A stretch of DNA of 64,000 bases from an uncultured Planctomycetales bacterium. GTDB lineage: Bacteria > Omnitrophota > Gorgyraeia > Zapsychrales > GWA2-47-8. Made by a program: the position numbers and the translations under genes. The notes below the pieces were generated by a model. It made no database searches. It was not told the origin of the DNA and saw only the letters and a list, made by a program, of their open reading frames with translations. The stretch's first letter is position 1. Every line of letters starts with the position of its first letter. Shown in pieces: positions 8,191-31,301 of this stretch. The stretch lies in contig CAZCLW010000003.1 of the NCBI GenBank assembly GCA_964499685.1, positions 16,042-80,041 of the forward strand, read 5' to 3'.

Positions 8191-8198
8191 AGGTTATT

Positions 8199-9608: not shown

Positions 9609-9627
9609 CGGGTAAGGAGAAAGAAGT

Positions 9628-10266
9628 ATGCAGATAAATAAATTTTTATTTTTTTCAGCTGTTTTTCTATTTGTTCTTACGGACGCCGGCCAGGCGCAAG
9701 GCGTTAAATCTTCACCGCTTTCTTCGATCCAGCGGCAAAAAGAGGCGCATGACCAAGAGGAAGCGAGCGAGTACCTAATCGGCGTAAGCGACATTCTCGA
9801 AATAACGGTCCTGCAGCCTCAACAACTCAGAAATATCGTGACGGTGGCGCCTGACGGAAGAGTTACGTTCCCGTATATAGGCAGCGTCCCGGCCAAAGAC
9901 CGCACTTTGACTGAGGTTCAGGAAGATATCCAAAAACGATTGGCCGACGGATATATGAAATATCCCGTCGTTGCCGTATCGCTTAAGGAATCGCGCAGTC
10001 AGAAATTTTTTGTGTACGGTGAAGTGATGGAGCCGGGGGCGTTCCCGTTGGAAGAGGACATGACCGTCTTGGGCGCTATCTCCATGGCGGGAGGATTGAG
10101 CGAATTCGGGTCGTCGAGCCGCGTTAAGATCCTCAGGCCTAAAAAAAATGCGCCCGGATATGAAGTGATAAAGGTGAACATCAAGGCCTTGATGAACGGT
10201 CACCCCAAGGCCGATATTACGGTGGACCCAGGGGACATCATCATTGTTTCAGAAGGCATATTTTAG
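9628..10266 (+). CDS. polysaccharide export protein, Wza-like (Poly_export + SLBB)
   Basis: Signal peptide. GVSDILEITV...PDGRVTFPYIGSVPAKDRTLTEVQEDIQKRL matches the Poly_export PES motif region. Strong RBS AAGGAGA. Confidence 0.8.
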   Translation: MQINKFLFFSAVFLFVLTDAGQAQGVKSSPLSSIQRQKEAHDQEEASEYLIGVSDILEITVLQPQQLRNIVTVAPDGRVTFPYIGSVPAKDRTLTEVQEDIQKRLADGYMKYPVVAVSLKESRSQKFFVYGEVMEPGAFPLEEDMTVLGAISMAGGLSEFGSSSRVKILRPKKNAPGYEVIKVNIKALMNGHPKADITVDPGDIIIVSEGIF

Positions 10267-10296
10267 ATCAACTCTTGGCAAACGAGGGATTTTAAA

Positions 10297-11850
10297 ATGA
10301 ACGAATTGACCTTTCGGGATTATATAAAGATATTTTTCCGTCAAAAAACCGTTATTCTGCTCTGTATTTTCAGCGTAATGGTCACAGTGGTCCTGGGGCT
10401 AAAATTCAAGACGCCGGTTTACGCCTCTCAGACGAAAATGCTGATCACGGCGCAAAAGCAGGCTGAGGCGACCTATTACCGGGATATCATCGATTATGAG
10501 AACGCCCATCTGGCCCTGACCCAAAGCGAGATCGTCAAATCCACACCCGTCGTGGAGCGTGCCCTCCAGGCCGTGCTGGCTTCCTATAATCCGCTTTCAA
10601 ATTTTCTGACCTATGAAAAGCGGTTTGCTTCGCCGTTGAAGCGTCGATGGATAGATCATCAGATCAGGCAGCTGAATGAACGTTTTGAAAGGTTTGATTT
10701 TACGGAAGAACAGAGGCAGGCGTTTATTTACCGCATGGCGCTGGAAGATTTAAGAAAGCGTATTACGGTCGAACCGCTGCGCAACACCAATATTTTTACC
10801 ATCTCCGTGACCGATTACGATCCCATAGGGGCGGCCCTGATCACTAATATCGTCAGCCGTTCATACGTGATCTTCGACATGGAACAGCAGATGGCGGAGA
10901 TGCAATTAAAGTATGGCGAGAAACATTTGGCCGTATCGCAATTGAAGGACAACATTCAGACCATGATCAAAAGCCTTAACGGGCAACCCATTTCCGACAT
11001 TGAAGCCATTGGCCCGGCGAGTGTCAAGATCATTGAGCAGGCCTTACCGGCCATCAGCCCGATGGGCCCTCCCCGGCGCCTCATTCTTCTCTTGGCTTTC
11101 GGAGCAAGTTTGGTCTTAGGGGCTGTCCTGGCGCTGGTCCTTGATTATCTTGATCAAACGTTTAAATCGCCCCGGGATATTGAACGCAGTCTGGGCGTTC
11201 TGTTTTTGGGCGGAGTGCCCAACAAGCCGCCTAGCGTCGTCGCCTATAAAAATTTGGCCGAACAAGTATATCTACAGATGAAAGAAAAAGGGCTGCAAAT
11301 ATTGGTCTTGACGGCCTCCCGCAACGGGGAAGGGGTCACGACAGTAAGTCATAACATCGGAAGATATATTGCTTCAACGCTGGGACACCGCGTGCTCATC
11401 ATTGAAGCGAACCCCCGGCACCTTTTATACAAAAAGAAACATAAATTAAGCACCGGTCCCGGACTTTTTGACGTACTTGAGGAAAATGCCACCCTGGACC
11501 AAGCGGTAAAAAACGTGGGAGATAAACTTTACGTCCTGCCGGTGGGGAAAACAGAGCTTAATCCGAATATCCTTTTGGAATCTCATAGGATGGCCGAGGT
11601 TTTTCAGGAAGCCAAGGCCGAATATGAACTTATTTTGATCGACAGTGCCAGCCTAAGCGCCTCGAAAGACGCGCTCAAGCTATTGAGCGTGGCCGAAGCG
11701 GTCGCCATCATCATCAGCGAAGGTCATGTACGCCGGCATGCGGTCAAGGCGGCGCTGGATAATCTCAATGTCCGCAAGATCAATGTACTGGGCGCCATTC
11801 TTAATAAGCGTATATTTCCCATTCCGCAATTCGTGTATGAAAGGGTCTAA
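10297..11850 (+). CDS. Wzz/Wzc-like chain-length determinant with degenerate C-terminal BY-kinase-like domain
   Basis: Two TM helices flank a periplasmic coiled-coil region. The C-terminal P-loop-like region reads TASRNGEGVTT (Lys missing). The Walker A' equivalent is VLIIEANPRH (DxD replaced by ExN). Walker B-like LILIDSASL is retained. There is no C-terminal Tyr cluster. Confidence 0.7.
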   Translation: MNELTFRDYIKIFFRQKTVILLCIFSVMVTVVLGLKFKTPVYASQTKMLITAQKQAEATYYRDIIDYENAHLALTQSEIVKSTPVVERALQAVLASYNPLSNFLTYEKRFASPLKRRWIDHQIRQLNERFERFDFTEEQRQAFIYRMALEDLRKRITVEPLRNTNIFTISVTDYDPIGAALITNIVSRSYVIFDMEQQMAEMQLKYGEKHLAVSQLKDNIQTMIKSLNGQPISDIEAIGPASVKIIEQALPAISPMGPPRRLILLLAFGASLVLGAVLALVLDYLDQTFKSPRDIERSLGVLFLGGVPNKPPSVVAYKNLAEQVYLQMKEKGLQILVLTASRNGEGVTTVSHNIGRYIASTLGHRVLIIEANPRHLLYKKKHKLSTGPGLFDVLEENATLDQAVKNVGDKLYVLPVGKTELNPNILLESHRMAEVFQEAKAEYELILIDSASLSASKDALKLLSVAEAVAIIISEGHVRRHAVKAALDNLNVRKINVLGAILNKRIFPIPQFVYERV

Positions 11851-11851
11851 T

Positions 11852-12385
11852 ATGCTTCGCTTCATTTGCTGCAGTCTTTATTATGGCTTCGCCCAATGGC
11901 TGCCTTCTTCTTATATAAAGGGGTGCAGGATCTGCGGCAGGATCCGTTCGTTTTTCTGCCGGGGAATGTTCTCCTATTGCGGCAAGGATGTCCTTATCCA
12001 GCGACAAGCCTTTTTTTATTCCGGCCGGAATATACGTATCGGGAACCGTTCTTCGATCGGAGAAAGGGCCAGCTTGTCGGGCAGCATCACCCTGGGCGAT
12101 GACGTCATGATGGGAGAAGATGTCCTGATGATGACGCGTAACCACGAATTTTCCCGGATGGATGTTCCCATGAACCAGCAGGGTTTCCAAGGGGAGAAGC
12201 CTATTTTCGTCGGGAGTAATGTTTGGATCGGCGCGCGGGTGATCGTATTGCCGGGCGTGACCATAGGCGACGGCGCTATCATCGGCGCCGGTGCGGTCGT
12301 TACAAAGGATATCCCGGCCTGGACCGTGGCCGTGGGGAATCCGGCCAAAGTGATCAAAGACAGAAGAGAGACGATCAAGGTATGA
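11852..12385 (+). CDS. hexapeptide-repeat O-acetyltransferase (WcaF/maltose-acetyltransferase-like)
   Basis: Left-handed beta-helix hexapeptide repeats (IGSNVWIGARVIVLPGVTIGDGAIIGAGAVV). Confidence 0.75.
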   Translation: MLRFICCSLYYGFAQWLPSSYIKGCRICGRIRSFFCRGMFSYCGKDVLIQRQAFFYSGRNIRIGNRSSIGERASLSGSITLGDDVMMGEDVLMMTRNHEFSRMDVPMNQQGFQGEKPIFVGSNVWIGARVIVLPGVTIGDGAIIGAGAVVTKDIPAWTVAVGNPAKVIKDRRETIKV

Positions 12386-13815
12386 GCTTAAGACAGAAAA
12401 CCATCGCAGGCCTATCCTGGTCAGCCGTTGCCCAAGGAGGCAAGCAGTTGAGTCAATTTATCATCACGGTGATCCTGGCCAGGCTTCTGGCGCCCACGGA
12501 TTTCGGGCTTTTGGGCATGGCGATGGTCTTTACCGGGTTCATTGCCATTTTCAGCGAACTGGGGTTAAGTGGGGCGCTGATCCAAAAACAGAATGCCGAT
12601 GAGGGACACTATTCTTCGGCTTTTTGGCTGAACGTCTTGGTCGGCGTGGTTTTGACCATCGGATTTATTTTCGCCGCACCCGTTATTGCGGCCTTCTATC
12701 GCCGGCCGGAACTGGAGAGCATTCTGGTCGTCCTGGCTTTTAATTTCCTCCTGTCTTCTTTTACCATTGTTCAGCAGGCGATCCTGACCAAGAACATGGA
12801 TTTTAAAGCGCTGATGGTCAGAGACTTGGCGGCGGTCATTGCCGCCGGTATCGCCGGCATTTTTTTTGCTTATCGTGGATTCGGCGTCTGGAGCCTGGTC
12901 ATACAATTATTCGTATTTACCTGCGTAAATAATATTTTATTGTGGTCTTGTTCGTCCTGGCGGCCCAAATGGGTATTTCGTCTGGAATCCCTGAAAGATA
13001 TTTTTCACTTCAGTTCACACATGACCGGGTTTCAGATCGTAAATTATTTTGCGCGCAATGTGGACAGTTTGCTGATCGGCAGATTCTTAGGGTCACAGGC
13101 CCTGGGTTATTATACGCTGGCCTACAAGCTCATGATGTTTCCCATTCAGAACTTTACCTGGGTCTTGAACAAGGTCATGTTCCCGGCTTTTTCGATGATC
13201 CAGCGGGAACTGGAAAAGGTGCGGATTAATTACCTGAAAATGATCAAGACCGTGACCTTGATCGCTTTCCCGGTCATGGCATTTTTGTTCATAGCGGCGC
13301 CCGATCTGATCGTCCTACTTTATGGTGAGCGCTGGAAGGAGGCTGTGCCTTTGGTCCAGATATTCTGTTTTTGCGGAATGATCCAGGCGATCGGTTCGTC
13401 GGGAGGGGTCGTTTATCTTTCCCAGGGCCGGGCGGATGTCCAGTTCAAAATGAGCGTCGTGAGCATTTTTCTTCTTTCCGGCACGCTGCTGTTCGCCGTC
13501 CGTCACGGTGTGGAAGCAGTGGCCTTGGCTTACACGGTTTATTATCTGCTTTGGACGCAAGTGTCCCTGTGGGTCGTTTCCCGCTTGATTTCCTTGAATG
13601 TGTCAAGAGTTTACAAGACGGCCATGGCTCCTTTTGCCATGAGTATGGCGTTATTGCTGGCAGCGGCGGGCTTTGGCGAATTGATCAGTCTGGAGCCGGC
13701 ATGGAAGATGGTTATTATAGGAACATTGGGTATAGTGGCCTACCTTGCGTTTGTTTTTCTGGCCAAACAGATCATTATTTTGGATAACCGGCAACTTACC
13801 TTAAAAGAGGTATAA
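12382..13815 (+). CDS. wzx: Wzx-type polysaccharide flippase (MOP/PST family)
   Basis: About 12 TM helices. N-terminal GGKQLSQFIITVILARLLAPTDFGLLGMA typical of the polysaccharide biosynthesis protein family. ATGA overlap with the acetyltransferase. Confidence 0.75.
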   Translation: MSLRQKTIAGLSWSAVAQGGKQLSQFIITVILARLLAPTDFGLLGMAMVFTGFIAIFSELGLSGALIQKQNADEGHYSSAFWLNVLVGVVLTIGFIFAAPVIAAFYRRPELESILVVLAFNFLLSSFTIVQQAILTKNMDFKALMVRDLAAVIAAGIAGIFFAYRGFGVWSLVIQLFVFTCVNNILLWSCSSWRPKWVFRLESLKDIFHFSSHMTGFQIVNYFARNVDSLLIGRFLGSQALGYYTLAYKLMMFPIQNFTWVLNKVMFPAFSMIQRELEKVRINYLKMIKTVTLIAFPVMAFLFIAAPDLIVLLYGERWKEAVPLVQIFCFCGMIQAIGSSGGVVYLSQGRADVQFKMSVVSIFLLSGTLLFAVRHGVEAVALAYTVYYLLWTQVSLWVVSRLISLNVSRVYKTAMAPFAMSMALLLAAAGFGELISLEPAWKMVIIGTLGIVAYLAFVFLAKQIIILDNRQLTLKEV

Positions 13816-13818
13816 GGC

Positions 13819-14769
13819 ATGCATAACGCCGTAGTGACAGAGAAAGCCCAGGAAAACATTATCTCACGACAAGTCTTCGATGTATTCCGCCGATTTGTGG
13901 ACAGGCATATTGTTTTTGTCGAACCGGGCGGGAATCATGGCGACCATCTTATTTATAAAGGGGCGTATAAGCTCGCCCGTCTGGCCAATATCAAGTATAC
14001 GATCTACGATTTTGATGCCTTTCAGGCCGAAAAATTCCTTCCCGAACAAGTCGTCTATGTGCATGGGGGCGGCGGCTTTGTTCCGTGGTGGTCGGGAAAG
14101 ACCATGCAGATCTTAAAGAAACTGACTTCTGAATTCCGGGGCAGTTTTATACTGGGGCCGACGACCTTCTCGGACAACAGAGAATATTTGCGCAAGATTC
14201 TCGACGATTGTCTGGGAGGGAACGATTTTAGGGGGCTTTATGTTTTCACCCGCGATAGGTCCTCTTACGAAATTCTTAAAGCTTATATGCCCTGCGCCGG
14301 AGAGATCATCTGCGATCACGATACGGCCTTAAATCTTGTGCGTTCCGATCTTTTGCCGGAACCGCCTGCCGGGAAATATGTCTTTTATGCCCTACGCGAC
14401 GACAAGGAGCGTTCCTTTGAACAGGATTACGATTATTTAAGATGGGTGGACCCGGTCAAAGTTTCTTCAACGTTCGAAAAATGGCTGTATCTTCACGCCC
14501 GCGCCAAGAAATTGATAACCAACCGCACCCATTCCGCCATTTTGGGGAGCATATTGGGTATACCAACGGTCATGCTGCCCAACAGTTACCACAAGAACCG
14601 GTCCGTCTGGGAATTCTCCCTGGCCGAGCGGGGGGTGGAATGGCAGGAGAAAATCTCGCGTTCCCCCTGGAACAATTTTATCGGGAAAAACAAATGGCTG
14701 AAGGCCGTTTGCACCTCCCGCGGGTTCAAAAAAGCCGTTATCTACAGATTAAAGCTCTTGGGTTTTTAA
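13819..14769 (+). CDS. polysaccharide pyruvyl transferase family protein
   Basis: Size and motifs (ITNRTHSAILGSILGIPTV, GGGG...) resemble the PS_pyruv_trans (CsaB/WcaK) family. Confidence 0.55.
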   Translation: MHNAVVTEKAQENIISRQVFDVFRRFVDRHIVFVEPGGNHGDHLIYKGAYKLARLANIKYTIYDFDAFQAEKFLPEQVVYVHGGGGFVPWWSGKTMQILKKLTSEFRGSFILGPTTFSDNREYLRKILDDCLGGNDFRGLYVFTRDRSSYEILKAYMPCAGEIICDHDTALNLVRSDLLPEPPAGKYVFYALRDDKERSFEQDYDYLRWVDPVKVSSTFEKWLYLHARAKKLITNRTHSAILGSILGIPTVMLPNSYHKNRSVWEFSLAERGVEWQEKISRSPWNNFIGKNKWLKAVCTSRGFKKAVIYRLKLLGF

Positions 14770-14795
14770 ACGCTTTTAAACAGTACGGAGAAAAA

Positions 14796-15737
14796 ATGGA
14801 TTTAACGGTATTGATCTCCACCTGGAATAATTCCCGCTGTCTTGAGATGACCTTAGAGGCGTTCAGGGAATGCCTCATACCGGATGGTCTCAGGTGGGAG
14901 CTCATTATCGTGAACAACAATTGCACGGATGACACCGATCAAGTCATCGCAAAGTATGCGGACGCCCTGCCTATTTATTATGTGCGCGAGCCTGTCCAAG
15001 GACTGAGCCGTGCCAGAAACACCGGAGTGGCTGTTGCCAGCGGTGACTTCATTATATTTACGGACGATGACGTCAAGCCTTGTCCGGAATGGATAAAAAT
15101 TTACTGGCAGGCTTTCCGTAAAGGCGATCCGGCAAAATATTTTTGGGGCGGGCCCATTGAAAGCGAATTTGAAAGCAATGAGCCTGATCAGGATCTTTTG
15201 GCTGTTTCTCCTTCTTCCGTCAGGGGCCTGACGTTCGGCACTCAAAAACGCCTTTTGTCGAAGAATGAATACTTTGTTTCCATCAACTGGGGGACTTCTT
15301 TGGATATTATCAGGAAGGCCGGCGGTTTTGACATCCATAAAGGCCTCGGCGCATCGAAGGCCCTAAGTACGGGCGAGGAAACCGGTCTTATGGACAAACT
15401 GCGGTCCCGCGGATTGATGGGAATATATCTTCCGGATGCCATGGTCAAGCATTATGTCCCGCTGGAAAAATGCACCGCCGAGCATATTTTAAAACGCTGT
15501 GAAGCGGGAGCTTTGGATGGATATGACCGTTACTATTTCCGTTTGAAACAGTGGGTTTGGTTCAACCGGCCGGTAGGATTGTATGTGCATGCCGTTGTCG
15601 CTTTCGGAAGATATTTATGGAAGAAATTCTCCTTCCAAGGCGGCATGGCTGAATATATACGGTTCCGCATCGTGACGGCCATAACACAAGGATACACGAA
15701 CAACCTCAGAAAAAATCAGGTCAAACTGACCGGCTAA
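14796..15737 (+). CDS. glycosyltransferase family 2
   Basis: VLISTWNN...LIIVNNNCTDDT...FTDDDV (DXD) motifs. Confidence 0.75.
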   Translation: MDLTVLISTWNNSRCLEMTLEAFRECLIPDGLRWELIIVNNNCTDDTDQVIAKYADALPIYYVREPVQGLSRARNTGVAVASGDFIIFTDDDVKPCPEWIKIYWQAFRKGDPAKYFWGGPIESEFESNEPDQDLLAVSPSSVRGLTFGTQKRLLSKNEYFVSINWGTSLDIIRKAGGFDIHKGLGASKALSTGEETGLMDKLRSRGLMGIYLPDAMVKHYVPLEKCTAEHILKRCEAGALDGYDRYYFRLKQWVWFNRPVGLYVHAVVAFGRYLWKKFSFQGGMAEYIRFRIVTAITQGYTNNLRKNQVKLTG

Positions 15738-15747
15738 AGGAGATGCG

Positions 15748-16719
15748 ATGATCTCTGTCATCATCCCCACCTATAATTGCGGCAAATACGTGGCCAATGC
15801 GATCAAAAGTGTCTGCGCGCAGACCTATACCCATTTTGAGATTATCGTCATTGATGATGGCTCGACGGATAATACAGAAGAGGTTGTCCGATCGATCGCC
15901 GATCCGCGCCTACGTTATATCAAAAAGGCACAGGAGGGGAATTATTTTGCCCGTAACCGCGGCCTTGCCGAAGCAAGGGGAGAGTATGTCGTCTTTTTGG
16001 ACGCGGATGATATTATTTTGCCCAATAAATTTGCCGTACAACTGGAGAAATTCTTGCAGGACCCGGAACTGGGGTTATGCTGCACGAGTTTCTATGTCCA
16101 GTTCGCCGACCAGGAGGACCGGTCCTTCGTGGATACCTCCTTTTCTTTTTCCAGTGACTTTAATACGGAAAGCGGTTTTATCGAGAGGGCCTTGGAGAAT
16201 AATTTTATCCTGACATCGACCATCATGGTCCGACGTGAATGCGTCGAACGGCTTGGGGATTTCGACACGCGCTTTCAAAACGCGATGGATTATGAATTTT
16301 GTCTGCGGATGGCCTTTCATTATAAGGCCTGTTATCTCAGCGAAAGGCTCACGGTTCGCCTGGAGCATTCCGCCAATATCAGCAAGAACAAGATCAATAC
16401 TTACAGGGCTTTGCTCTATATTTTCAGTCATTGCGTGCCCCGTTTTTCCCGAGGGAGGTTTTATGAGCCAAAGCATGCGGCGCTGATCCAGCGCAAATGG
16501 CAAAAAAGCCTGTATTATCTGGGACTGGAACACCTCATGCTGCGTCATTTTGCGGACGCGGACCGGTGTTTGCAGCGGTGCCGATATGCCGAGAAATCAC
16601 TTTTTAAAATGATCGCGATCATTGCTGCCCGCTTTCGCTCTGATTTCTTGGCTTCTTTGATATCGTCCTATCGTTGGAAAAGGCAGCAGGAAAGGTTATT
16701 CCCGGTGCTAAAACCATGA
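15748..16719 (+). CDS. glycosyltransferase family 2
   Basis: ISVIIPTYNCGKYV...IIVIDDGSTDNT...FLDADD motifs. Confidence 0.85.
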   Translation: MISVIIPTYNCGKYVANAIKSVCAQTYTHFEIIVIDDGSTDNTEEVVRSIADPRLRYIKKAQEGNYFARNRGLAEARGEYVVFLDADDIILPNKFAVQLEKFLQDPELGLCCTSFYVQFADQEDRSFVDTSFSFSSDFNTESGFIERALENNFILTSTIMVRRECVERLGDFDTRFQNAMDYEFCLRMAFHYKACYLSERLTVRLEHSANISKNKINTYRALLYIFSHCVPRFSRGRFYEPKHAALIQRKWQKSLYYLGLEHLMLRHFADADRCLQRCRYAEKSLFKMIAIIAARFRSDFLASLISSYRWKRQQERLFPVLKP

Positions 16720-17873
16720 AAAACATTAAAGTCCTTCACATCATTAAAAATCTCCGGTTAGGCGGTGCTGAGATCAACCTATTTAATCTCTTGAACACGT
16801 TGCGGCACGATAATTTTGAGTTCCATGTCGCTTATGCTTACGGCGGCGAGTTGGAGCCAAGATTCCGAGCGGCGGGCTTCCATCTGTTTAAATATGCCGA
16901 TGAAGATCACAAGGTCGGCAGTTTAGCCACATTCGGGATCATCGGCCGTTTGATGCGGTATATTTGGCAAAACAGGATCGATATCATCCACACGCATACG
17001 TTCAGTGCGCACATTTGGGGGAGCATGGCCGCGAAATTGACGCGCTGCAAGATCGTCGAACATGTGCATGACTTCCGTTATCTGGATAGGGAAGAATTTG
17101 CCCGCCGACGGGGTTTTAACAAACAGTACCGTTTTATCAGGAATTTCAGGAACCTTTCCGACCGCGTGGTCGTATTGACCAAGCAGAACCGTGATTTTCT
17201 GCTTCGAGAGGACATGTATCCTCCGGAGCGCATTTATCAGTATCAAAACGGCATACCTTTGCCCGACGAGTCAGAGAAAAAGGCAGGGGCCAAGGCCAAG
17301 CTCGTGAGAAAGTTCAGTCTACCCGCAGATCCGGTCTTGATCTTTACATCGATACGCATCGCCCCTGAAAAAAATATTGACCTTATCCTGCGCATTGCCC
17401 CGAAAGTCATCGCGCAGGTCCCCAATGCCGTATTTTTGATCGCCGGAGACGGTCCGCTTTATTGTAAGACCTTTAATGAGATCAAAAACAGCGGCTTTAA
17501 GGACAACATCCGTCTAATCGGTTATGCCGCCAATATCCGTTCCCTGTTGGAAGCTGCGGACATTTTTCTGCTTCCCTCGTTTTTGGAACTGCATTCGATC
17601 GCGCTTTTGGAGGCCATGAGCATGAGGGTGCCGGTCGTTATTTCGCGCAATGTCGGATGTCATAACGAATTTATCGATAGTTGGGAAAACGGCGTCCTCC
17701 TGGACCCCTTTCAGGATGAGGGGTGGGCCGAGGCCCTGGTTGAGTTATTGGAGAATCCGCACTTACGCCGTACCGTAGGCGATAACGGTTACCGGACCTG
17801 TCAGCAAAAGTTCGATATTCGCGATACCGCGAAAAGGTTCGAGGAAATGTATGCTGAACTTATGGCGATATAA
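16716..17873 (+). CDS. glycosyltransferase family 4 (GT-B, RfaG-like)
   Basis: N-terminal LHIIKNLRLGGAE. C-terminal E-x7-E region (LPSFLELHSIALLEAMSMRVPVV). Confidence 0.85.
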   Translation: MKNIKVLHIIKNLRLGGAEINLFNLLNTLRHDNFEFHVAYAYGGELEPRFRAAGFHLFKYADEDHKVGSLATFGIIGRLMRYIWQNRIDIIHTHTFSAHIWGSMAAKLTRCKIVEHVHDFRYLDREEFARRRGFNKQYRFIRNFRNLSDRVVVLTKQNRDFLLREDMYPPERIYQYQNGIPLPDESEKKAGAKAKLVRKFSLPADPVLIFTSIRIAPEKNIDLILRIAPKVIAQVPNAVFLIAGDGPLYCKTFNEIKNSGFKDNIRLIGYAANIRSLLEAADIFLLPSFLELHSIALLEAMSMRVPVVISRNVGCHNEFIDSWENGVLLDPFQDEGWAEALVELLENPHLRRTVGDNGYRTCQQKFDIRDTAKRFEEMYAELMAI

Positions 17874-19233
17874 TTTATCTTTCGGTTTTGTTGCCTTAAT
17901 GGGTGTTTTGACGGGATACGCCGTTCTTTATGCCGTTCCTATCTTGACCGAAAAACCGGCCTTGATTGCCGGTTTAACGGCGGTCGCTGTTTATTTTTTA
18001 GTGATGGTCATGGCGCCTGAAACGGCGCTGGCGATTTTGCTCTTATGCCGGGCGTTTTTGGACCCGGTCCTGGAATCCACCCGCGTCGACGCTGCCGCGC
18101 AGGGTATGGGCTTGGGGGCGCTGATCAATCTCGCGATCATTGTCTTGACATTTTTTTTGTGGATCAGGAACCGCTCGGGTGTCATAAAGAAGAGTTTCAC
18201 GGTCATGTGGTCCCTGTTCTTGGCGGTTACGTTCCTATCCGCCTTTTACAGCCCTGAAACAGGACGGGCCTTGCGTCTTTGGCTTAACTTTGTCACTTAC
18301 TTTTGTATGTTCAGCCTCCCTTTTTTAGTGGCTCTGACGCCGGAGAAACGGCGCTTTTGGTGGATTATCCTGCTGGTTTCCTTTATTGCGCCCGTTGCTG
18401 TCGCTGATATAGAGCTCTTGGGGGGCGGCTACGATGCCGGGGCGGCCGCGGGCATGCGCATCGCAGGCACCTTTATGCATCCGAATATCTTGGCCTTTTA
18501 TGTCGGTCTGGGGCTAGTTTTGGTCGCCTATTCCTTGCAGCAAAAGAGTTGGGGGCTCAGCCGTATCCAAAGGAATTTCCTGAAATTGTTGGCGGTAAAC
18601 CTGGCCGTGCTTTTGTTGATGACCAAGACCCGTAATGCATGGCTGGCCTTTTGGACAACATTTTTTATATACGGCCTTTGGAAAGACAGGCGGCTGGCGT
18701 TGTTCCTGATTTTTTTGCCGCCTTTGGCGCTGCTCATCCCACCGGTGGCTGAGAGAGTGTTCGATCTTTTTCAGCCGGAATATCTGCGGGCTTACCATGG
18801 CGACGATTCATTGTCATGGCGCATTCATTTATGGGAAAGCAGTATTCCCTGGATTTGGAAAAGTCCGCTCATTGGCCATGGGCTTTCATCCTTTATCCCT
18901 TTATCGGTGAATTTTTTTGAATCCGTTTCCGGGGTGGGAGCTCACAGCGTTTTTATCGAACTTTTATTCGAAACCGGTCTGATCGGCCTGATCAGCTATT
19001 TGGGTATTTTCACTGTGCTTCTTAAGAAAGGTTTTTTTCAAAGAAACACAGCAGGGGTGGCAAACGATAGGGCCACCGCCCTCGCGGCAGTCTTTGTCAT
19101 CGGCTACTTAGTGATCAATATGGCGGATAATCTTTTGCATTACCTGGTTTTTAACTGGTACTTCTGGTTTTTCGTCGGCCTGGCTCTTGTGGAGGAAAAG
19201 CTATGGCATACGGAACAACCGTCTCCTTTATAG
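17851..19233 (+). CDS. O-antigen ligase/Wzy-like polymerase (Wzy_C family membrane protein)
   Basis: About 10-12 TM helices with a large periplasmic loop containing conserved R/H (TKTRNAW...H). Located within the Wzx-dependent locus. Confidence 0.7.
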   Translation: MLNLWRYNLSFGFVALMGVLTGYAVLYAVPILTEKPALIAGLTAVAVYFLVMVMAPETALAILLLCRAFLDPVLESTRVDAAAQGMGLGALINLAIIVLTFFLWIRNRSGVIKKSFTVMWSLFLAVTFLSAFYSPETGRALRLWLNFVTYFCMFSLPFLVALTPEKRRFWWIILLVSFIAPVAVADIELLGGGYDAGAAAGMRIAGTFMHPNILAFYVGLGLVLVAYSLQQKSWGLSRIQRNFLKLLAVNLAVLLLMTKTRNAWLAFWTTFFIYGLWKDRRLALFLIFLPPLALLIPPVAERVFDLFQPEYLRAYHGDDSLSWRIHLWESSIPWIWKSPLIGHGLSSFIPLSVNFFESVSGVGAHSVFIELLFETGLIGLISYLGIFTVLLKKGFFQRNTAGVANDRATALAAVFVIGYLVINMADNLLHYLVFNWYFWFFVGLALVEEKLWHTEQPSPL

Positions 19234-20129
19234 TCCCATCGTATAATTCCTGTTCCACGATCGGCGCGACTTTGGAAAGCATCCGCCAGCAGTCCGTGTG
19301 GGATCGGGTTAAAGAGGTCATTGTGGTCGACTCGTCTGAAGACGGGGAGACCCGGCCGCTTCTTAACGCGTATGCCCAGGATCCCAAGTTCCGGATCAAC
19401 TTTTTGGACAAGAAATTGTCTCCGGCCAATGCACGGAATTTCGGTTTTCAGCAGTCGTCCGGTGATCTTTTGTGCTTTATTGACAGCGATACCTGTTTAG
19501 CCGAGGATTGGCTGAAGGAGATCCTGGAGGCTTGTAAGCGTAATTGCCGGGCCGGAGGAGGGTCCATTTCGCTGTTTAAATTCCAGCGGAAAAACGTCCT
19601 CGCGCTGGCTCAATTATATCTGCAATGCAATGAATTCCTCAACGTCGGTTCCCAGCGTCAAAAACTCTTCGTGCCTTCCTGCAATATGTTTTGCCACCGG
19701 ACTGTATTTGAAAAAGCGGGAGGCTTCCCCAACATTCGGGCCTCCGAGGACACTTTATTCTTCCTGCAGATAAAGGATGCTAAGGTCCATTTTATTCCTT
19801 CGGCGCAGAGTTACCATATTTTCCGTCAGGACTGGAAGTCCTTTGTTGAGAACCAATGTCTTCTTGGGAAATATGTGAGCATTTATCGTCGCCGACATTA
19901 TTCCAGTCTCTTGTATAAAGGGATCGTGCCGGTCCTTTTATCGCCTGTCTTCCTCGCGATCAAATTTTTCCGCATGTGCCGGCGGGTCGCGAAAGCGGGA
20001 TCAGGACATGTGAGGGATTTCTTGAGGGCTTTCCCCTTTTTCTGTTTAGGTTTTCTTATATGGTCTTATGGGTTTATCGCCGGTTTTTTGGAGCGAAAAA
20101 ATGCGGATCTTGGGAATCAATTATCATAA
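19203..20129 (+). CDS. glycosyltransferase family 2
   Basis: VSFIVPSYNS...VIVVDSSEDG...FIDSDT motifs. Confidence 0.75.
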   Translation: MAYGTTVSFIVPSYNSCSTIGATLESIRQQSVWDRVKEVIVVDSSEDGETRPLLNAYAQDPKFRINFLDKKLSPANARNFGFQQSSGDLLCFIDSDTCLAEDWLKEILEACKRNCRAGGGSISLFKFQRKNVLALAQLYLQCNEFLNVGSQRQKLFVPSCNMFCHRTVFEKAGGFPNIRASEDTLFFLQIKDAKVHFIPSAQSYHIFRQDWKSFVENQCLLGKYVSIYRRRHYSSLLYKGIVPVLLSPVFLAIKFFRMCRRVAKAGSGHVRDFLRAFPFFCLGFLIWSYGFIAGFLERKNADLGNQLS

Positions 20130-22896
20130 TGTCACTTTTCGGGAGGCCTTGGACATTGCTTTTAAGATGTTCGAGACGACATCCAAGGGAGAGATATATT
20201 TTCTGAACTTGGACTGTCTGTACAGATCGGTGCGCGACCGGGAATACCGAAGGGCGCTGAACAGGGCCAGCCTTGTCCTCTCCGACGGGGTAGGTCTTAA
20301 GGTCGCCACATGGCTCTTCGGCGGGAAGATGAGGGAAAACTGCAACGGCACCGATTTTTCGCCGTTTTTCATGGAAGAGATCGCTCGTAACGGTTATGGG
20401 GTCTATCTGCTCGGCGGAAAAGACAATGTTGCCTCCGCGGCGGCGGAAAACCTCCGTCAAATGTTCCCGCGTCTTCTCATCAAGGGAACACACGACGGTT
20501 TTTTTGACAACGACGATGAGATCATCGACGATATCAATAGATCCGGCGCGGAAGTCCTTTTTGTCGCCATGGGGGCGCCGTTGCAGGAAAAATGGATCGC
20601 GCGCAACCGTCATCGGCTTAATCCCCGCATTTGCCTGGGCGTGGGAGGTTTATTGGATTATTTATCGGGATATAAAATACGCGCGCCTCATCTTTGGCGG
20701 AGTCTGCATTTGGAATGGCTGTGGCGGGTTTTCCGGGAGCCGCAGCGTCTGTTTAAACGCTATTTTATGGAGGATATGGGCTTTATGATCTATTTACTTT
20801 ATATCATTATAAAAAGGAAATTCGGTGTTCTATGGGGAAAGAAAATGCGCAACCCCGCCATTTTTATTTTTTTCTTTTTGACACTTATTTTCACGCGGAT
20901 AGCTTTCGCGCAGCAGGGTAATTGGAGTTTTGCCGGCTGGTACGGCGGAGGCTGTTACCCCAACATCGTGTTCGACCCGAATGTCAGGAATAGGGTGTAT
21001 CTCACGTCAGATGTGGCCGGTGCCTGGCGGAGTGATAACGGCGGTGAACAATGGCATTTTATCAATCAAGGTCTTAATAGTTTGAATGTGGCCCAATTGG
21101 CGGTCGCCAAGGCCAATTCCAATGTGCTGTATGCCGCGACGGTACGGGGGATTTATTATTCTCTCAATGCCGGCTCGTCCTGGCAGAAGGCGGATGACGC
21201 CGGAGGGGCCCTGGTGTTTCAGCGGCCGCAAAGCCACCGGCCCATAACCATTTCGGCGCGGAATGCCGGTAAGGTGTGCGCGGGCACTTCCAAAGGCGAG
21301 GTTTTCTGCTCGCAAAATTACGGAAAAAGTTGGGTGCCGATCCCCGCCTATCTCGGCAAACCGACCCCGATAACATCCCTGTCCTTTGTTTCCGGGGATA
21401 ACGGTTTGCTCGTCGGCAATACCACAGGTCTGCTTAAATACAGTTTTAATACCAAAACCTGGTATCCGTATTTTTCATTCAATCATCCTGTCACGGATTT
21501 TACCATCTCCCAAAAAAAGCCTGGGATGCTGGTCGTGGCCGGTGAAAAATACCTTTTGATCACTTTAGATAACGGAAAGACTTGGCAGAGATCGGCGGAT
21601 ATCCCCGAGGGGAAGAGCTACCGCGTCATCCTGGACGATTCTAAAACAAGTCCCGTTATTATTGTGGCTTGGCTGCAGGATTGGAACGGCGGCCTTGTCA
21701 TTTCCAGCGACGGAGGGGTTTCCTGGAAGAAGTTTGACGGAAAATTTTTCCCCGATACCGTCGGAAACCCGACGCGAAGTTGGGCGGCTTTAAAGACCCG
21801 TCCGACAGCGGTCCGGATAGACCCTTTCGATCCCGAGCGTTTTTTCCTTACCGACTGGTGGGGCGTGTGGCGCACGGACAACCGGGGTTATTTCTGGGTC
21901 GAAAAGATCAAGGGTGCGCCCAACAGCGTGGGTTCGGATATTTTTATGTCGGCGCAAGGGGATCTTTATGTGGCCACCATGGATAACGGGCTTTTAAGAA
22001 GCAGCGACGGAGGCAAGACCTATCAGATGCTTTTCCCGAAGAAGGGATACAGCACCGAGATCAACGGTCATTTGTGGCAGGTCTTGGTCGTGGGGAATAA
22101 TCGCATCGTCGCGACTTCTTCTCCATGGGGAGCGAATATCAATCAAGTCATTATCAGCGATGACGGCGGCCAGAATTTTCGCATAGCCCGGGCCGGTTTG
22201 CCGGCACAGAGGCCCAAAGGCAATACCATGTGGGGACAAGGATATCCACGCGGACTGGCGGTCGATCCGGCCAATGCCAATGTCCTCTACTTGGGAATGG
22301 ATGGCGATGATCTGGGCGGTATTTTCCGGTCACAGGACGCCGGTTCTTCTTGGGCCCGTCTGCCCGGACAGCCCAGTTCCAAAAAGATATATAACGGTCT
22401 GCTTGTCGATAAAGATTCTTCTGACACTTTATTCTGGGCAGCTTGCGGACCCGGCGGAGGAATCTACAAATCCGTAGACCGCGGACAGACTTGGAAAAGA
22501 ATTTTTTCAAGGACCTTTTGTATTTTGGACCTTGAGATGGGGTCCGATGGGGCCTTGTATGCGGCGGGGTCTGCTCCGCGGCCGGTGCTTTATGTTTCCA
22601 GGAATAAAGGGTTGAATTGGACGGAGCTCGGTCAGTTCACCGCGCCGGGGGCCTCGGCGGCGGAGGCGATCGCGACCGCCTTCAATAATCCGCAGCTGAT
22701 CGCGGTCAGCACGGTCAGCTGGAGCCAGGTGGGCTCCCAGAAAATATTCTTAAGCCGTGATGCTGGTAAAACCTGGACGGATATCTCGACGGATCTTCCG
22801 GCGGGAGCCGGCGCTGCGGCCATGACCTTTGACCGCGACGGACGTTTTTTGTATATCACCCGTTATGCGGGGTCTGTGTATAAGTACAGTTTATGA
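20101..22896 (+). CDS. fusion: WecB/TagA/CpsF (GT26) glycosyltransferase + signal-anchor TM + large BNR/Asp-box beta-propeller domain (GH74/sortilin-like)
   Basis: The N-terminal 250 aa match GT26 end-to-end, including the C-terminal LEWLWRVFREPQRLFKRYF. Then a hydrophobic segment AIFIFFFLTLIFTRIAFA. Then at least 11 Asp-box repeats (SDNGGEQW, NAGSSWQK, DNGKTWQR, SDGGVSWKK, SDGGKTYQ, DDGGQNF, DAGSSWAR, DRGQTWKR, RDAGKTWTD ...). No in-frame stop between domains (checked codon by codon, 20761-20940). Confidence 0.65.
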   Translation: MRILGINYHNVTFREALDIAFKMFETTSKGEIYFLNLDCLYRSVRDREYRRALNRASLVLSDGVGLKVATWLFGGKMRENCNGTDFSPFFMEEIARNGYGVYLLGGKDNVASAAAENLRQMFPRLLIKGTHDGFFDNDDEIIDDINRSGAEVLFVAMGAPLQEKWIARNRHRLNPRICLGVGGLLDYLSGYKIRAPHLWRSLHLEWLWRVFREPQRLFKRYFMEDMGFMIYLLYIIIKRKFGVLWGKKMRNPAIFIFFFLTLIFTRIAFAQQGNWSFAGWYGGGCYPNIVFDPNVRNRVYLTSDVAGAWRSDNGGEQWHFINQGLNSLNVAQLAVAKANSNVLYAATVRGIYYSLNAGSSWQKADDAGGALVFQRPQSHRPITISARNAGKVCAGTSKGEVFCSQNYGKSWVPIPAYLGKPTPITSLSFVSGDNGLLVGNTTGLLKYSFNTKTWYPYFSFNHPVTDFTISQKKPGMLVVAGEKYLLITLDNGKTWQRSADIPEGKSYRVILDDSKTSPVIIVAWLQDWNGGLVISSDGGVSWKKFDGKFFPDTVGNPTRSWAALKTRPTAVRIDPFDPERFFLTDWWGVWRTDNRGYFWVEKIKGAPNSVGSDIFMSAQGDLYVATMDNGLLRSSDGGKTYQMLFPKKGYSTEINGHLWQVLVVGNNRIVATSSPWGANINQVIISDDGGQNFRIARAGLPAQRPKGNTMWGQGYPRGLAVDPANANVLYLGMDGDDLGGIFRSQDAGSSWARLPGQPSSKKIYNGLLVDKDSSDTLFWAACGPGGGIYKSVDRGQTWKRIFSRTFCILDLEMGSDGALYAAGSAPRPVLYVSRNKGLNWTELGQFTAPGASAAEAIATAFNNPQLIAVSTVSWSQVGSQKIFLSRDAGKTWTDISTDLPAGAGAAAMTFDRDGRFLYITRYAGSVYKYSL

Positions 22897-22908
22897 GAGG
22901 AGGACAAT

Positions 22909-24040: not shown

Positions 24041-24114
24041 ACGGTATATTGAAAAATTTATAATTTGTTTTAAGATATGTTTAGGTACAAGAAAAGTCCA
24101 ACCAGGAGGGGATC

Positions 24115-24552: not shown

Positions 24553-24589
24553 GCCCATCCCGGGCCTCAGGGAAGCGCCTCGACTTCGG

Positions 24590-29288: not shown

Positions 29289-29343
29289 ACTCCTTTTCCC
29301 CGTACTATAATAAGAGCATTATTTTTTAATCTCCGAGGTTTCC

Positions 29344-30450: not shown

Positions 30451-30454
30451 AACA

Positions 30455-31171: not shown

Positions 31172-31199
31172 ACATCCTTCCAATTTGTCGAAAAATTCA

Positions 31200-31228: not shown

Positions 31229-31261
31229 GCAGTCTCAAATTCGTAGCAATTGACAATCAAT

Positions 31262-31281: not shown

Positions 31282-31301
31282 TCTTTATTTTAGAGGTATG
31301 T

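What the first reader, a model, noticed from the sequence alone, without database searches (positions are those of the whole stretch)
20101..22896. Fusion of a cytoplasmic GT26 (WecB/TagA/CpsF) glycosyltransferase to a periplasmic BNR/Asp-box beta-propeller via a signal-anchor
Seen: a full-length GT26 domain ending in the family's characteristic C-terminus. It continues without a stop (checked codon by codon) into a signal-peptide-like hydrophobic segment (MRNPAIFIFFFLTLIFTRIAFA-QQ). Then comes about 680 aa with at least 11 S-x-D-x-G-x-(T/S)-(W/F) Asp-box repeats, consistent with two beta-propellers (GH74/sortilin/Ycf48-like). One polypeptide would therefore place a sugar-adding enzyme on the cytoplasmic face and a carbohydrate-binding/hydrolysing propeller on the periplasmic face, an arrangement not, to my knowledge, described for Wzx/Wzy systems. 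An internal ATG at 20845 preceded by GGGGAAAG could alternatively yield the propeller as a separate secreted protein.
Basis: partly seen in the sequence, partly recalled or inferred. Interest (0 to 1): 0.6.

Follow-up and report, generated by a model that had tools for sequence, protein, structure and literature searches.

The report
Sugar-adding and sugar-cutting enzymes fused
The last two genes of a bacterial slime (exopolysaccharide) gene cluster, a sugar-adding enzyme that works inside the cell and an exported sugar-cutting propeller enzyme, have merged into one reading frame by losing a stop codon; this is real and recurs in nature, but it is a modest variation on a known pairing.

Summary
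Window 20101-22896 is one uninterrupted 931-codon ORF made of three parts:
- a complete GT26 glycosyltransferase, with all TagA catalytic and tail residues conserved;
- a 22-residue signal-peptide-like segment;
- a 661-residue double beta-propeller with 12 Asp-boxes.

AlphaFold2 plus Foldseek place the propeller in the GH74 fold: the top 25 PDB hits are all GH74, TM 0.72-0.76. The N-terminal catalytic Asp is invariant, and a symmetric second Asp is also invariant.

The fusion is not an artefact. Another assembly has the identical junction, and two diverged relatives (57% and 46% identity) are also fused.

Most relatives, mainly Omnitrophota MAGs, carry GT26 and the propeller as separate genes. 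These overlap by 4-13 nt, or in one case are split by a single in-frame stop. In the propeller tree the fused genes are not monophyletic (0/200 bootstraps).

The gene ends a Wzx/Wzy exopolysaccharide locus. The propeller is therefore most likely a periplasmic polymer-trimming hydrolase, analogous to PslG or ExoK.

The hydrophobic segment looks more like a cleavable signal peptide than a stable anchor. It has a short h-region, an AFA|QQ site and only four residues before the first propeller strand. Cleavage and use of the internal start remain untested.

Verdict: a new variant of a known kind, of moderate interest.

The parts
20101..22896 (+). Fused ORF: 931 codons plus stop. It encodes GT26, an internal signal peptide and a GH74-like double propeller.
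   Evidence: The frame is uninterrupted. The identical junction is present in an independent assembly, L031. Fused homologues are P0002 (57% identity) and P0003 (46% identity).
20101..20685 (+). GT26 core domain, aa 1-195. The Pfam PF03808 match itself is aa 56-221 = 20266-20763. The putative catalytic base D62 is the codon at 20284-20286.
   Evidence: Pfam E 6e-56. phmmer against T. italicus TagA 7mpk gives E 2e-43. D62, N36 and Q162 correspond to TagA D65, N39 and Q167.
20686..20844 (+). GT26 C-terminal tail, aa 196-248. It holds the conserved E205, W206, R209, R216 and R220, an amphipathic hydrophobic helix (GFMIYLLYIII) and a basic end (KRKFGVLWGKK).
   Evidence: It aligns with the TagA tail residues E210, W211, R214, R221 and R224, which are required for catalysis and membrane association. 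It aligns to the very C-terminus of stand-alone GT26 genes. AF2 predicts a helix at aa 214-240.
20834..20847 (+). Shine-Dalgarno-like GGGGA (20834-20838) plus the internal ATG (20845-20847). This is the ancestral start of the propeller gene.
   Evidence: Read directly from the sequence. The motif is comparable to those upstream of other genes in the window. M249 aligns with the start Met of stand-alone propellers.
20845..20910 (+). Internal signal-peptide-like segment, aa 249-270: n-region MRN, h-region PAIFIFFFLTLIF, c-region TRIAFA, and a predicted signal peptidase I site AFA|QQ.
   Evidence: It contains the highest hydropathy window of the protein. AF2 predicts a helix at aa 252-266. The same layout and a small-x-small site occur in the stand-alone orthologues and in the other two fusions (VFA|E, IFA|E).
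20911..22893 (+). Mature GH74-like double beta-propeller, aa 271-931, with 12 Asp-boxes. The candidate catalytic residues are D304 (codon 21010-21012) and D628 (codon 21982-21984).
   Evidence: The AF2 model has pLDDT 89.3 and pTM 0.84. The Foldseek top 25 PDB hits are all GH74, TM 0.72-0.76. A family profile hits GH74 chains down to E 1e-21. D304 aligns with the catalytic D35 of OXG-RCBH. Both Asp residues are invariant in 22 of 22 family members.
7063..20129 (+). Upstream context: a Wzx/Wzy-type exopolysaccharide locus. In order: beta-barrel porin (BBP2_2), priming sugar transferase, Wza-like exporter, Wzz/kinase-like protein, hexapeptide acyltransferase, Wzx flippase, pyruvyl transferase, GT2, GT2, GT4, Wzy, GT2.
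   Evidence: Pfam scans. The same gene order is seen in L001 and L003.

Best explanation
This is a genuine gene fusion. It arose by loss of the stop codon between the last two genes of a Wzx/Wzy-type exopolysaccharide locus, in a bacterium whose closest named relatives are Omnitrophota. In relatives these two genes overlap or abut.

Gene 1 is a complete GT26 (WecB/TagA/CpsF) enzyme. By family knowledge, such enzymes add a sugar to the undecaprenyl-diphosphate-linked repeat unit on the cytoplasmic face of the membrane.

Gene 2 is a Sec-exported, GH74-like double-propeller glycoside hydrolase.

The hydrolase's own signal peptide is now internal. Its flanks are strongly asymmetric in charge (6 K/R before, none after). 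It should therefore insert N-in/C-out, leaving GT26 in the cytoplasm and moving the propeller to the periplasm. This step is inferred.

The segment keeps a short h-region and a conserved small-x-small site (AFA|QQ), and it lies only four residues from the first propeller strand. I therefore think the most likely fate is cleavage by signal peptidase I. That would yield a GT26 with an extra C-terminal membrane anchor and a free periplasmic hydrolase. Some propeller may also be translated separately from the retained ATG at 20845. These steps are inferred and untested.

The hydrolase most likely trims or clears the polymer that the locus makes, as PslG does for Psl and ExoK does for succinoglycan. 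The fusion would give 1:1 co-production at the membrane.

My estimates for the separate steps:
- real fusion: about 0.95;
- propeller is an active hydrolase acting on the locus's own polymer: about 0.6-0.7;
- cleavage rather than stable anchoring: about 0.5-0.55.
For: The ORF is continuous.

The junction is identical in another assembly. L031 matches the window over 5,254 nt, apart from one A-run indel elsewhere.

Two diverged homologues are also fused. P0002 is seen in two assemblies, and P0003 comes from an NCBI Omnitrophota MAG.

Orthologous loci carry GT2 -> GT26 -> propeller as separate genes:
- with 4-13 nt overlaps in L003, L004, L017 and L044;
- in L047, in the same frame and split only by TGA plus one codon.

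The window's GT26 aligns to the very end of stand-alone GT26 proteins, and M249 aligns with the propeller's start Met.

The GT26 catalytic and tail residues are all conserved.

The propeller has the GH74 fold with invariant Asp304 and Asp628.

Close propeller homologues (36-47% identity) carry carbohydrate-binding modules: CBM60, CBM6 and F5/8-C.

The locus also encodes a Wza-like exporter and a beta-barrel porin, so an outer membrane and a periplasm exist.

The signal-peptide layout and the -3/-1 rule are kept in all three fusions despite full sequence divergence of that segment.

Homologues that are truly membrane-anchored have a 150-200 aa Ser/Thr-rich linker between anchor and propeller, which the fusion lacks.

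PslG shows that an inner-membrane-associated glycosidase is part of a Wzx/Wzy machinery (PMC6813494, PMC13434223).
Against: No signal-peptide or topology predictor was available, and there are no expression data. Cleavage, topology and use of the internal start are therefore inferences from sequence rules.

The hydrophobic stretch A253-A270 is 18 residues long and could span a membrane as a stable anchor.

The second catalytic Asp (D628) is matched to GH74 only by a weak local alignment (2.2 bits) and by pseudo-symmetry.

Identity to GH74 is only 16-18%, and CAZy membership was not tested.

GT26 and the propeller are not obligately linked. About half of the propeller loci, and most of the roughly 22 stand-alone genes for the window's GT26 type, lack the partner nearby.

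The polymer and both substrates are unknown.
Confidence: 0.62

Rival explanations
1. Stable bitopic bifunctional enzyme. The hydrophobic segment is an uncleaved signal-anchor. One polypeptide would carry an active GT26 on the cytoplasmic face and an active hydrolase pinned to the periplasmic face, physically coupling repeat-unit synthesis to polymer processing.
For: A253-A270 is 18 mostly hydrophobic residues, and the flanks obey the positive-inside rule. The open frame is kept in three lineages at 46-57% identity. Some homologous propellers are naturally membrane-anchored by an N-terminal TM segment (P0101, P0103). PslG must be associated with the inner membrane to support Psl synthesis (PMC6813494).
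Against: The small-x-small cleavage motif is kept in all three fusions at the same distance from the mature HWEFAGWYGGG motif as in the secreted orthologues. AF2 predicts only a 15-residue helix, and an Arg or a Gly-Arg/Pro break lies before the site. There is no linker: four residues separate the site from the first strand, against 150-200 aa in the truly anchored homologues.
Confidence: 0.3
2. Functionally still two genes. Loss of the stop is near-neutral. The propeller is made mainly by independent initiation at ATG 20845 behind its own Shine-Dalgarno sequence, and the full-length read-through product is a minor or tolerated by-product. This reading does not exclude cleavage.
For: The ancestral start Met and a GGGGA motif six bases upstream are retained in the window. 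L001 has an in-frame GTG at the equivalent place, and L023 has ATG, GTG and TTG codons just upstream of the h-region. Most relatives are split. One relative is a single stop codon away from fusion.
Against: GT26 has no stop of its own, so every GT26 molecule must be made as the fusion unless it is processed. L023 has no convincing Shine-Dalgarno sequence before its candidate internal starts. The fused state has persisted through about 50% sequence divergence, or has arisen twice, which argues that it is at least not deleterious.
Confidence: 0.3
3. The propeller is not a hydrolase. It would instead be a carbohydrate-binding or scaffolding module (Ycf48- or sortilin-like) that guides or assembles the export machinery.
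For: There are Pfam PSII_BNR and Sortilin-Vps10 hits. Identity to GH74 enzymes is low, at 16-18%. The second catalytic Asp is only weakly aligned.
Against: The PSII_BNR hit covers 65 of 303 profile positions. The Vps10 structure superposes poorly (TM 0.22), whereas 25 GH74 structures superpose at TM 0.72-0.76 over the whole chain. D304 aligns with catalytic D35 of OXG-RCBH, and both Asp motifs are invariant in 22 of 22 members. Homologues are fused to CBMs, as is typical of enzymes.
Confidence: 0.15
4. Assembly or sequencing artefact: a 1-nt indel error merged two overlapping genes.
For: The junction contains short A-runs. An independent assembly of the same population does carry a 1-nt A-run error elsewhere in the gene, at window 22381.
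Against: That independent assembly has the identical junction. Two other lineages with completely different junction DNA are also in frame. The amino-acid alignment runs straight from the GT26 C-terminus into the propeller's start Met with nothing missing.
Confidence: 0.02

Closest known systems
GT26 enzymes TagA/TarA, WecG and GumM (WecB/TagA/CpsF family)
   Same: The N-terminal 248 aa match the full Pfam and TIGR family models. They match T. italicus TagA at E 2e-43, with D65, N39, Q167 and the tail residues E210, W211, R214, R221 and R224 all conserved. As with GumM in the xanthan locus, the gene sits in a Wzx/Wzy locus together with a priming transferase, a GT4 and a pyruvyl transferase (PMC4443731).
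   Different: It scores far below the equivalog cutoffs for TarA, WecG and EpsA, so donor and acceptor are unknown. It belongs to a distinct subgroup with FLN(L/A/I)DC in place of TPN(V/A)(D/E) (TagA T37 -> F34) and a CNGTD motif. It continues into a signal peptide and a 661-aa exported domain. No described GT26 that I found does this.
GH74 xyloglucanases (e.g. 5jwz, 5fkq, 6p2m, 2cn3, OXG-RCBH 1sqj; 'ancestral' GH74 6p2k)
   Same: The whole chain adopts the two-propeller fold (TM 0.72-0.76). The family profile reaches E 1e-21. The N-terminal catalytic Asp motif is shared: YARTD35IGGAYR against YLTSD304VAGAWR. A pseudo-symmetric second Asp motif is also shared: AMGDQGVFR against ATMD628NGLLR.
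   Different: Identity is only 16-18%. The protein is shorter than most GH74 enzymes. It is encoded inside a polysaccharide biosynthesis locus rather than a plant-cell-wall degradation locus. Its substrate is unknown. Membership in CAZy GH74 was not tested.
PslG (GH39) of the Pseudomonas aeruginosa Psl locus
   Same: It is an endoglycosidase encoded within a Wzx/Wzy-dependent exopolysaccharide locus. It acts in the periplasm, and its inner-membrane association matters for polymer production (PMC6813494; PMC13434223). It is the best functional analogue.
   Different: PslG has a different fold (GH39 TIM barrel), is a separate gene with its own N-terminal membrane segment, and is not fused to a glycosyltransferase.
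ExoK/ExsH endoglycanases of the Sinorhizobium succinoglycan system
   Same: They are self-encoded glycanases that cut the organism's own acetylated and pyruvylated heteropolysaccharide, which is made by a Wzx/Wzy pathway (PMC4443731).
   Different: ExoK resembles excreted endo-beta-1,3-1,4-glucanases (PMC4443731), not a propeller. It is a separate, secreted protein.
Bradyrhizobium japonicum FbcH cytochrome b/c1 precursor (from my own knowledge: Thony-Meyer et al., PNAS 1991; not retrieved here)
   Same: It is a bacterial precedent for one ORF whose downstream half is released on the periplasmic side by cleavage at an internal signal peptide.
   Different: The proteins are unrelated, and the upstream half is a polytopic membrane protein. 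It is cited only as a mechanistic precedent, and nothing about it was tested here.
Tunicate cellulose synthase Ci-CesA, a GT2 fused to a GH6-like domain (from my own knowledge; not retrieved here)
   Same: It has a polysaccharide-making transferase and a glycoside-hydrolase-like domain in one polypeptide on opposite sides of a membrane.
   Different: It is eukaryotic, a synthase-dependent system, and built from different families.

Membership tests
GT26 (WecB/TagA/CpsF glycosyltransferases) | Match to the family profile above the curated threshold | tested here: met
   PF03808 scores 189 bits against a cutoff of 27.4, covering profile positions 1-168 of 168. TIGR00696 scores 128 bits against a cutoff of 69.
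GT26 (WecB/TagA/CpsF glycosyltransferases) | Core catalytic Asp (TagA D65) and sugar-contacting N39 and Q167 | tested here: met
   The phmmer alignment to 7mpk places D62, N36 and Q162 at these positions. The residue roles come from PMC8784642.
GT26 (WecB/TagA/CpsF glycosyltransferases) | C-terminal tail with E210, W211, R214, R221 and R224 and a hydrophobic membrane-binding patch | tested here: met
   E205, W206, R209, R216 and R220 are present and invariant in the five members of this GT26 subgroup. The hydrophobic helix GFMIYLLYIII follows.
GT26 (WecB/TagA/CpsF glycosyltransferases) | Assignment to a specific enzyme (TarA, WecG or EpsA equivalogs) | tested here: not met
   Scores are 130.7 against a cutoff of 350, 104.4 against 323, and 97.6 against 500. 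Specificity is unknown.
GT26 (WecB/TagA/CpsF glycosyltransferases) | Transfer of a sugar to a polyprenyl-diphosphate-linked acceptor | not testable with these tools
   This needs an enzyme assay.
GH74 glycoside hydrolases | Two tandem seven-bladed beta-propellers forming a substrate cleft | tested here: met
   The AF2 model has pLDDT 89. The Foldseek top 25 PDB hits are all GH74, with TM 0.72-0.76 over 745-820 aligned columns. The next fold class drops to TM <=0.5.
GH74 glycoside hydrolases | N-terminal catalytic Asp (D35 of OXG-RCBH; D60 of PoGH74) | tested here: met
   The profile alignment to 1sqj puts the invariant family Asp (D304 of the fusion) on D35. It is invariant in 22 of 22 members.
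GH74 glycoside hydrolases | C-terminal catalytic Asp (D465 of OXG-RCBH) | tested here: inconclusive
   The invariant TMD628NGL motif aligns with SAMGDQGVF of ClGH74a 6p2m, but only in a 2.2-bit local hit. Pseudo-symmetry with the N-terminal motif supports the match. No structural superposition output was available.
GH74 glycoside hydrolases | CAZy/dbCAN family HMM match and activity on substituted beta-1,4-glucans | not testable with these tools
   No CAZy library and no assay were available. The profile E-value of 1e-21 to the 'ancestral GH74' 6p2k shows homology, not membership.
Ycf48 / PSII_BNR assembly factors | Single seven-bladed propeller of ~300 aa matching PF14870 over its length | tested here: not met
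   The hit covers only profile positions 238-302 of 303. NCBIfam Ycf48 scores 34 bits against a cutoff of 326.
Sortilin / Vps10 domain | Ten-bladed propeller followed by 10CC modules | tested here: not met
   The Pfam hits are six short fragments of the 446-position profile. The SorLA Vps10 structure superposes at TM 0.22.
NCBIfam F510_1955 family glycosylhydrolase | Score above the equivalog cutoff | tested here: not met
   The score is 126.7 bits against a cutoff of 175, in four partial stretches.
Sec-type (signal peptidase I) signal peptide | Basic n-region, 7-15 residue h-region, polar c-region with small residues at -3 and -1 | tested here: inconclusive
   The sequence fits: KK-MRN / PAIFIFFFLTLIF / TRIAFA|QQ. 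The other fusions and the stand-alone orthologues fit as well. No predictor (SignalP or DeepTMHMM) and no experiment was available, and the position is internal.
Exopolysaccharide-locus periplasmic glycosidases (functional class: PslG, BcsZ, ExoK) | Exported glycosidase encoded inside the biosynthetic locus of the polymer it cuts | tested here: inconclusive
   Location is met. It is the last gene of a Wzx/Wzy locus, and synteny is conserved. An export signal is present. Activity on the cognate polymer was not tested.

The most novel reading that the evidence does not exclude
The fusion is a functional trans-envelope 'maker-breaker' module, in one of two possible forms. One form is a stable bitopic enzyme that couples cytoplasmic repeat-unit synthesis by GT26 to periplasmic cutting of the same polymer. 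GT26 may form a GumM-like beta-1,4-glucosyl bond, and the GH74-like fold cuts substituted beta-1,4-glucans. The other form is a bacterial GT/GH polyprotein that is split by signal peptidase at an internal signal peptide. Either form would be selected for 1:1 stoichiometry and co-localisation at the Wzx/Wzy machinery, and it would have arisen at least twice independently.
Probability: 0.3. Interest if true: 0.6.

Novelty: new variant of a known kind. Interest (0 to 1): 0.4.

Why it matters
The fusion acts as a natural 'Rosetta stone'. It says that this GT26 and this GH74-like propeller work on the same polymer in uncultivated Omnitrophota. It gives a biosynthetic, self-polymer role to a fold known so far from plant xyloglucan degradation, and it adds a new fold to the class of exopolysaccharide-locus glycosidases (PslG, BcsZ, ExoK).

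If the internal signal peptide is cleaved, this would be a rare bacterial example of a cytoplasmic enzyme and a periplasmic enzyme made as one precursor. If it is not cleaved, it would be a bitopic enzyme with catalytic domains on both faces of the membrane.

Neither outcome changes how Wzx/Wzy pathways are understood. The fusion is a minority state, reachable by a single stop-codon mutation. Its importance is therefore moderate.

Tried and rejected
- Foldseek against afdb50 with the full-length model was tried to look for the same architecture in UniProt. The library was not available.
- The first bootstrap script timed out. It was rerun with a lighter distance routine.
- The first search for TagA residues used three-letter residue names and found nothing. 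It succeeded with one-letter names.
- I looked for GH74 catalytic-residue numbering in PMC8245568 and found none. I therefore relied on PDB entry titles (D465N in 2ebs, D60A in 6mgl) and on my own knowledge for D35 and D465.
- A literature search for Omnitrophota exopolysaccharide enzymes found nothing relevant.
- The search of 1.84 billion cluster representatives found no further fused representative. Apart from P0001, which stands for the window's own cluster, long N-terminal extensions on other representatives were TM segments with Ser/Thr linkers or F5/8-C domains, not GT26.
- The metagenome scan with the window's GT26 type returned 80 loci, none fused.
- Rejected readings: assembly artefact; Ycf48 or sortilin identity; a single origin of all three fusions in the propeller tree (0 of 200 bootstraps).

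Full report
**1.

The window contains a single open frame, 20068..22896. The ATG at 20101 (MRILGINYHN) gives 931 codons and is the start used for the homologues P0001 and P0002.

Pfam finds Glyco_tran_WecG over its whole profile at aa 56-221 (E 6e-56). It finds BNR, Sortilin-Vps10 and PSII_BNR hits over aa ~300-931. NCBIfam TIGR00696 scores above its cutoff.

The most hydrophobic 19-residue window of the protein is aa 252-270. Six K/R lie in the 20 residues before it, and there is no charge in the 20 residues after it. Twelve (S/T)x(D/N)xGxx(W/F/Y) Asp-boxes follow.

The internal ATG is at 20845, with GGGGA six bases upstream. That is similar to the Shine-Dalgarno-like motifs of neighbouring genes.

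**2. The fusion is real, not an assembly error.**

A contig from another assembly (L031, Logan SRR10807893) is identical to window 19673-24927. The one exception is a single-base deletion in an A-run at window 22381, far from the junction.

P0002 (57% identity, 943 aa, seen in a JGI and a Logan assembly) and P0003 (46% identity, from an NCBI Omnitrophota MAG) are also fused. Their junction DNA is entirely different.

**3. What relatives look like.**

About twenty orthologous propellers (42-52% identity, ~680 aa) are stand-alone proteins that begin with an ordinary signal peptide.

In their contigs the order GT2 -> GT26 (253 aa) -> propeller closes the same kind of locus. GT26 overlaps the propeller start by 4 nt (ATGA) or 13 nt.

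Among 25 loci from GTDB species representatives (mostly Omnitrophota MAGs):
- 10 have a GT26 directly next to the propeller: seven upstream as a separate gene, one fused, two downstream;
- two more have one within 2.5 kb;
- the rest have none in the available flank.

There are two GT26 subgroups.
- The first subgroup is L003/L004-like: 55-60% identical among themselves and ~30% identical to the window.
- The second subgroup is window-like, with motifs FLN(L/A/I)DC and CNGTD. Its members are fused in the window, L001 and L023, split with a 7-nt overlap in L017, and placed downstream of the propeller in L016.

A metagenome scan with the window-like GT26 found 80 loci. About 22 are close relatives (45-56% identity), and all of those are stand-alone genes of 241-262 aa. 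Two sit directly next to a propeller:
- L044 has a 4-nt overlap;
- L047 has GT26 and the propeller in the same frame, separated only by TGA, one codon and the ATG.

The fusion is therefore one point mutation away from an existing arrangement.

In a bootstrapped NJ tree of the propellers:
- window + L001 group together 200 times out of 200;
- fused L023 groups 200 times out of 200 with L003, L013, L027 and L009, three of which (L003, L009, L013) have a separate L003/L004-like GT26 upstream;
- the three fusions never form one clade.

Either the fusion arose at least twice, or GT26 was exchanged in some lineages.

**4. The junction.**

The window's GT26 aligns right to the C-terminal residues of stand-alone GT26 proteins (KRKFGVLWGKK against KQKLAQKKHS*). 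M249 is the start Met of the propeller gene.

The segment that follows has the n/h/c layout of a Sec signal peptide: MRN / PAIFIFFFLTLIF / TRIAFA|QQ. The other fusions have VFA|E and IFA|E. The stand-alone orthologues have AFA|S, VFA|Q, LSA|D and similar sites, at the same short distance from the mature HWEFAGWYGGG motif.

The full-length AF2 model gives:
- a long helix at aa 214-240 (the GT26 tail);
- a break;
- a 15-residue helix at aa 252-266;
- the first propeller strand at aa 275.

Propeller homologues that are clearly membrane-anchored (P0101, P0103) have an N-terminal TM segment followed by a 150-200 aa Ser/Thr-rich linker. The fusion has nothing comparable.

These points favour a cleavable signal peptide over a stable anchor. 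They are sequence rules, not measurements.

**5. The GT26 half.**

phmmer hits T. italicus TagA (7mpk) at E 2e-43. The TagA residues reported as important (PMC8784642) are D65, N39 and Q167 in the core, and E210, W211, R214, R221 and R224 in the tail. The tail also targets TagA to the membrane.

These residues correspond to D62, N36, Q162, E205, W206, R209, R216 and R220 in the window protein. All are present. The enzyme therefore looks complete and active.

The equivalog models for TarA, WecG and EpsA are far from their cutoffs, so the sugar transferred is unknown.

**6. The propeller half.**

An AF2 model built with 22 homologues has pLDDT 89.3 and pTM 0.84. The best 25 PDB matches by Foldseek are all GH74 enzymes (TM 0.72-0.76, 16-18% identity). 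Other propeller proteins fall to TM <=0.5, and the Vps10 domain to 0.22.

A profile of the family hits GH74 chains down to E 1e-21. The invariant YLTSD304VAG motif aligns with YARTD35IGG of OXG-RCBH, where D35 is a catalytic residue (the residue identity is from my own knowledge). The titles of 6mgl and 2ebs name mutants at the two GH74 catalytic positions (D60A and D465N).

A pseudo-symmetric invariant motif, TMD628NGL, aligns weakly with SAMGDQGVF of ClGH74a.

Homologous propellers (36-47% identity) occur with CBM60, CBM6, F5/8-type-C, fn3 and PKD modules, as expected for secreted carbohydrate-active enzymes.

I conclude that this is a GH74-like glycoside hydrolase. Formal CAZy membership and the substrate are untested.

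**7. Context.**

Window 7063-20129 encodes, in order: a BBP2 beta-barrel porin, a priming sugar transferase, a Wza-like exporter, a Wzz/kinase-like protein, a hexapeptide acyltransferase, a Wzx flippase, a pyruvyl transferase, GT2, GT2, GT4, a Wzy polymerase and GT2.

This is a Wzx/Wzy exopolysaccharide locus of a diderm cell, so there is a periplasm. The order is syntenic with L001 and L003.

**8. Mechanism.**

Shown:
- two complete enzymes in one frame;
- a secretory signal between them;
- conserved adjacency with and without fusion.

Inferred:
- N-in/C-out insertion through Sec;
- GT26 acting on the lipid-linked repeat unit at the cytoplasmic face;
- the propeller acting in the periplasm on the polymer made by the locus, as PslG and ExoK do (PMC6813494; PMC13434223; PMC4443731).

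Speculative: GumM, the GT26 of the xanthan pathway, makes the beta-1,4 Glc-Glc backbone bond (PMC4443731), and GH74 enzymes cut substituted beta-1,4-glucans. The two halves could therefore make and break the same kind of bond.

**9. Fate of the fusion.**

I rate cleavage by signal peptidase I at about 0.5-0.55 and a stable anchor at about 0.3. A contribution from the internal start is non-exclusive, at about 0.3-0.4. A bacterial precedent for cleavage at an internal signal peptide is the B. japonicum FbcH cytochrome b/c1 precursor (from my own knowledge).

**10. Verdict.**

The 'signal-anchor' and the degree of novelty are overstated.

This is a new variant of a known kind: a GT26 fused to a GH74-like hydrolase, within the known theme of polysaccharide loci that encode their own periplasmic glycosidase. 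It is a minority state, reachable by a single stop-codon mutation. Interest is moderate (0.4).

Noticed in passing
L047 1510-1690 (CXWL01016463.1): A window-type GT26 and the propeller gene lie in the same reading frame. They are separated only by TGA, one codon (GTT) and the propeller's ATG. This is a natural one-mutation precursor of the fusion.
   Followed up: yes
window 22376-22381; L031 2709: An otherwise identical contig from another assembly (Logan SRR10807893) lacks one A of an A-run. That splits the propeller ORF there into 791-aa and 123-aa genes (P0001 and P0149). Homology to P0002 shows that the window version is the intact one.
   Followed up: yes
window 20200-20220 (aa 34-39); alignment A4: The GT26 subgroup that takes part in the fusions has FLN(L/A/I)DC where TagA and the other GT26 subgroup have TPN(V/A)(D/E). 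TagA Thr37 is replaced by Phe. The subgroup also has an invariant CNGTD motif. This may reflect a different donor or acceptor.
   Followed up: partly
P0101, P0103 (cluster representatives): These propeller homologues (45-47% identity) have an N-terminal transmembrane segment followed by a 150-200 aa Ser/Thr-rich low-complexity linker. They are membrane-tethered versions of the same enzyme.
   Followed up: partly
P0102, P0105, P0108, P0109, P0111: The same propeller (41-47% identity) occurs in large multidomain proteins with CBM60, CBM6, F5/8-type-C, fn3, PKD and RGI-lyase beta-sheet domains.
   Followed up: partly
L010 6001-10385; L025 2136-7016: Two tandem paralogous propeller genes lie side by side, with no GT26 in the flanks.
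   Followed up: no
L014 (NZ_DASZTY010000017.1, labelled Hyphomicrobium sp. MAG); L025 (Candidatus Eisenbacteria MAG): Propeller orthologues (43-46% identity) occur outside the Omnitrophota-labelled bins. The cause could be horizontal transfer or mis-binning; which one was not examined.
   Followed up: no
window 1-2374: The ORF at 674-2374 has a weak terminase RNaseH-like domain hit (Terminase_6C, E 8e-6). This may be a prophage remnant at the window edge.
   Followed up: no
window 24115-24552 (+) and 24590-26212 (-): The first is a 145-aa secreted protein that is extremely rich in Met (MMxxMM-type runs, His-rich end). The second is a 540-aa polytopic membrane protein. Neither has a Pfam match.
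   Followed up: no
window 27292-37169 and 38963-52396: Housekeeping blocks: succinyl-CoA ligase subunits (27292-29288); an NqrA-like gene (31302-32651) and a Fer2/FAD/NAD oxidoreductase gene (35934-37169), possibly the ends of an nqr operon (the ORFs in between were not scanned); then two ammonium transporters, a type III glutamine synthetase and a large glutamate synthase.
   Followed up: no
window 20068-20129: The fused gene's start at 20101 overlaps the end of the upstream GT2 gene (stop at 20129) by 29 nt. The same 29-nt overlap is seen in L001, which suggests translational coupling along the end of the operon.
   Followed up: partly
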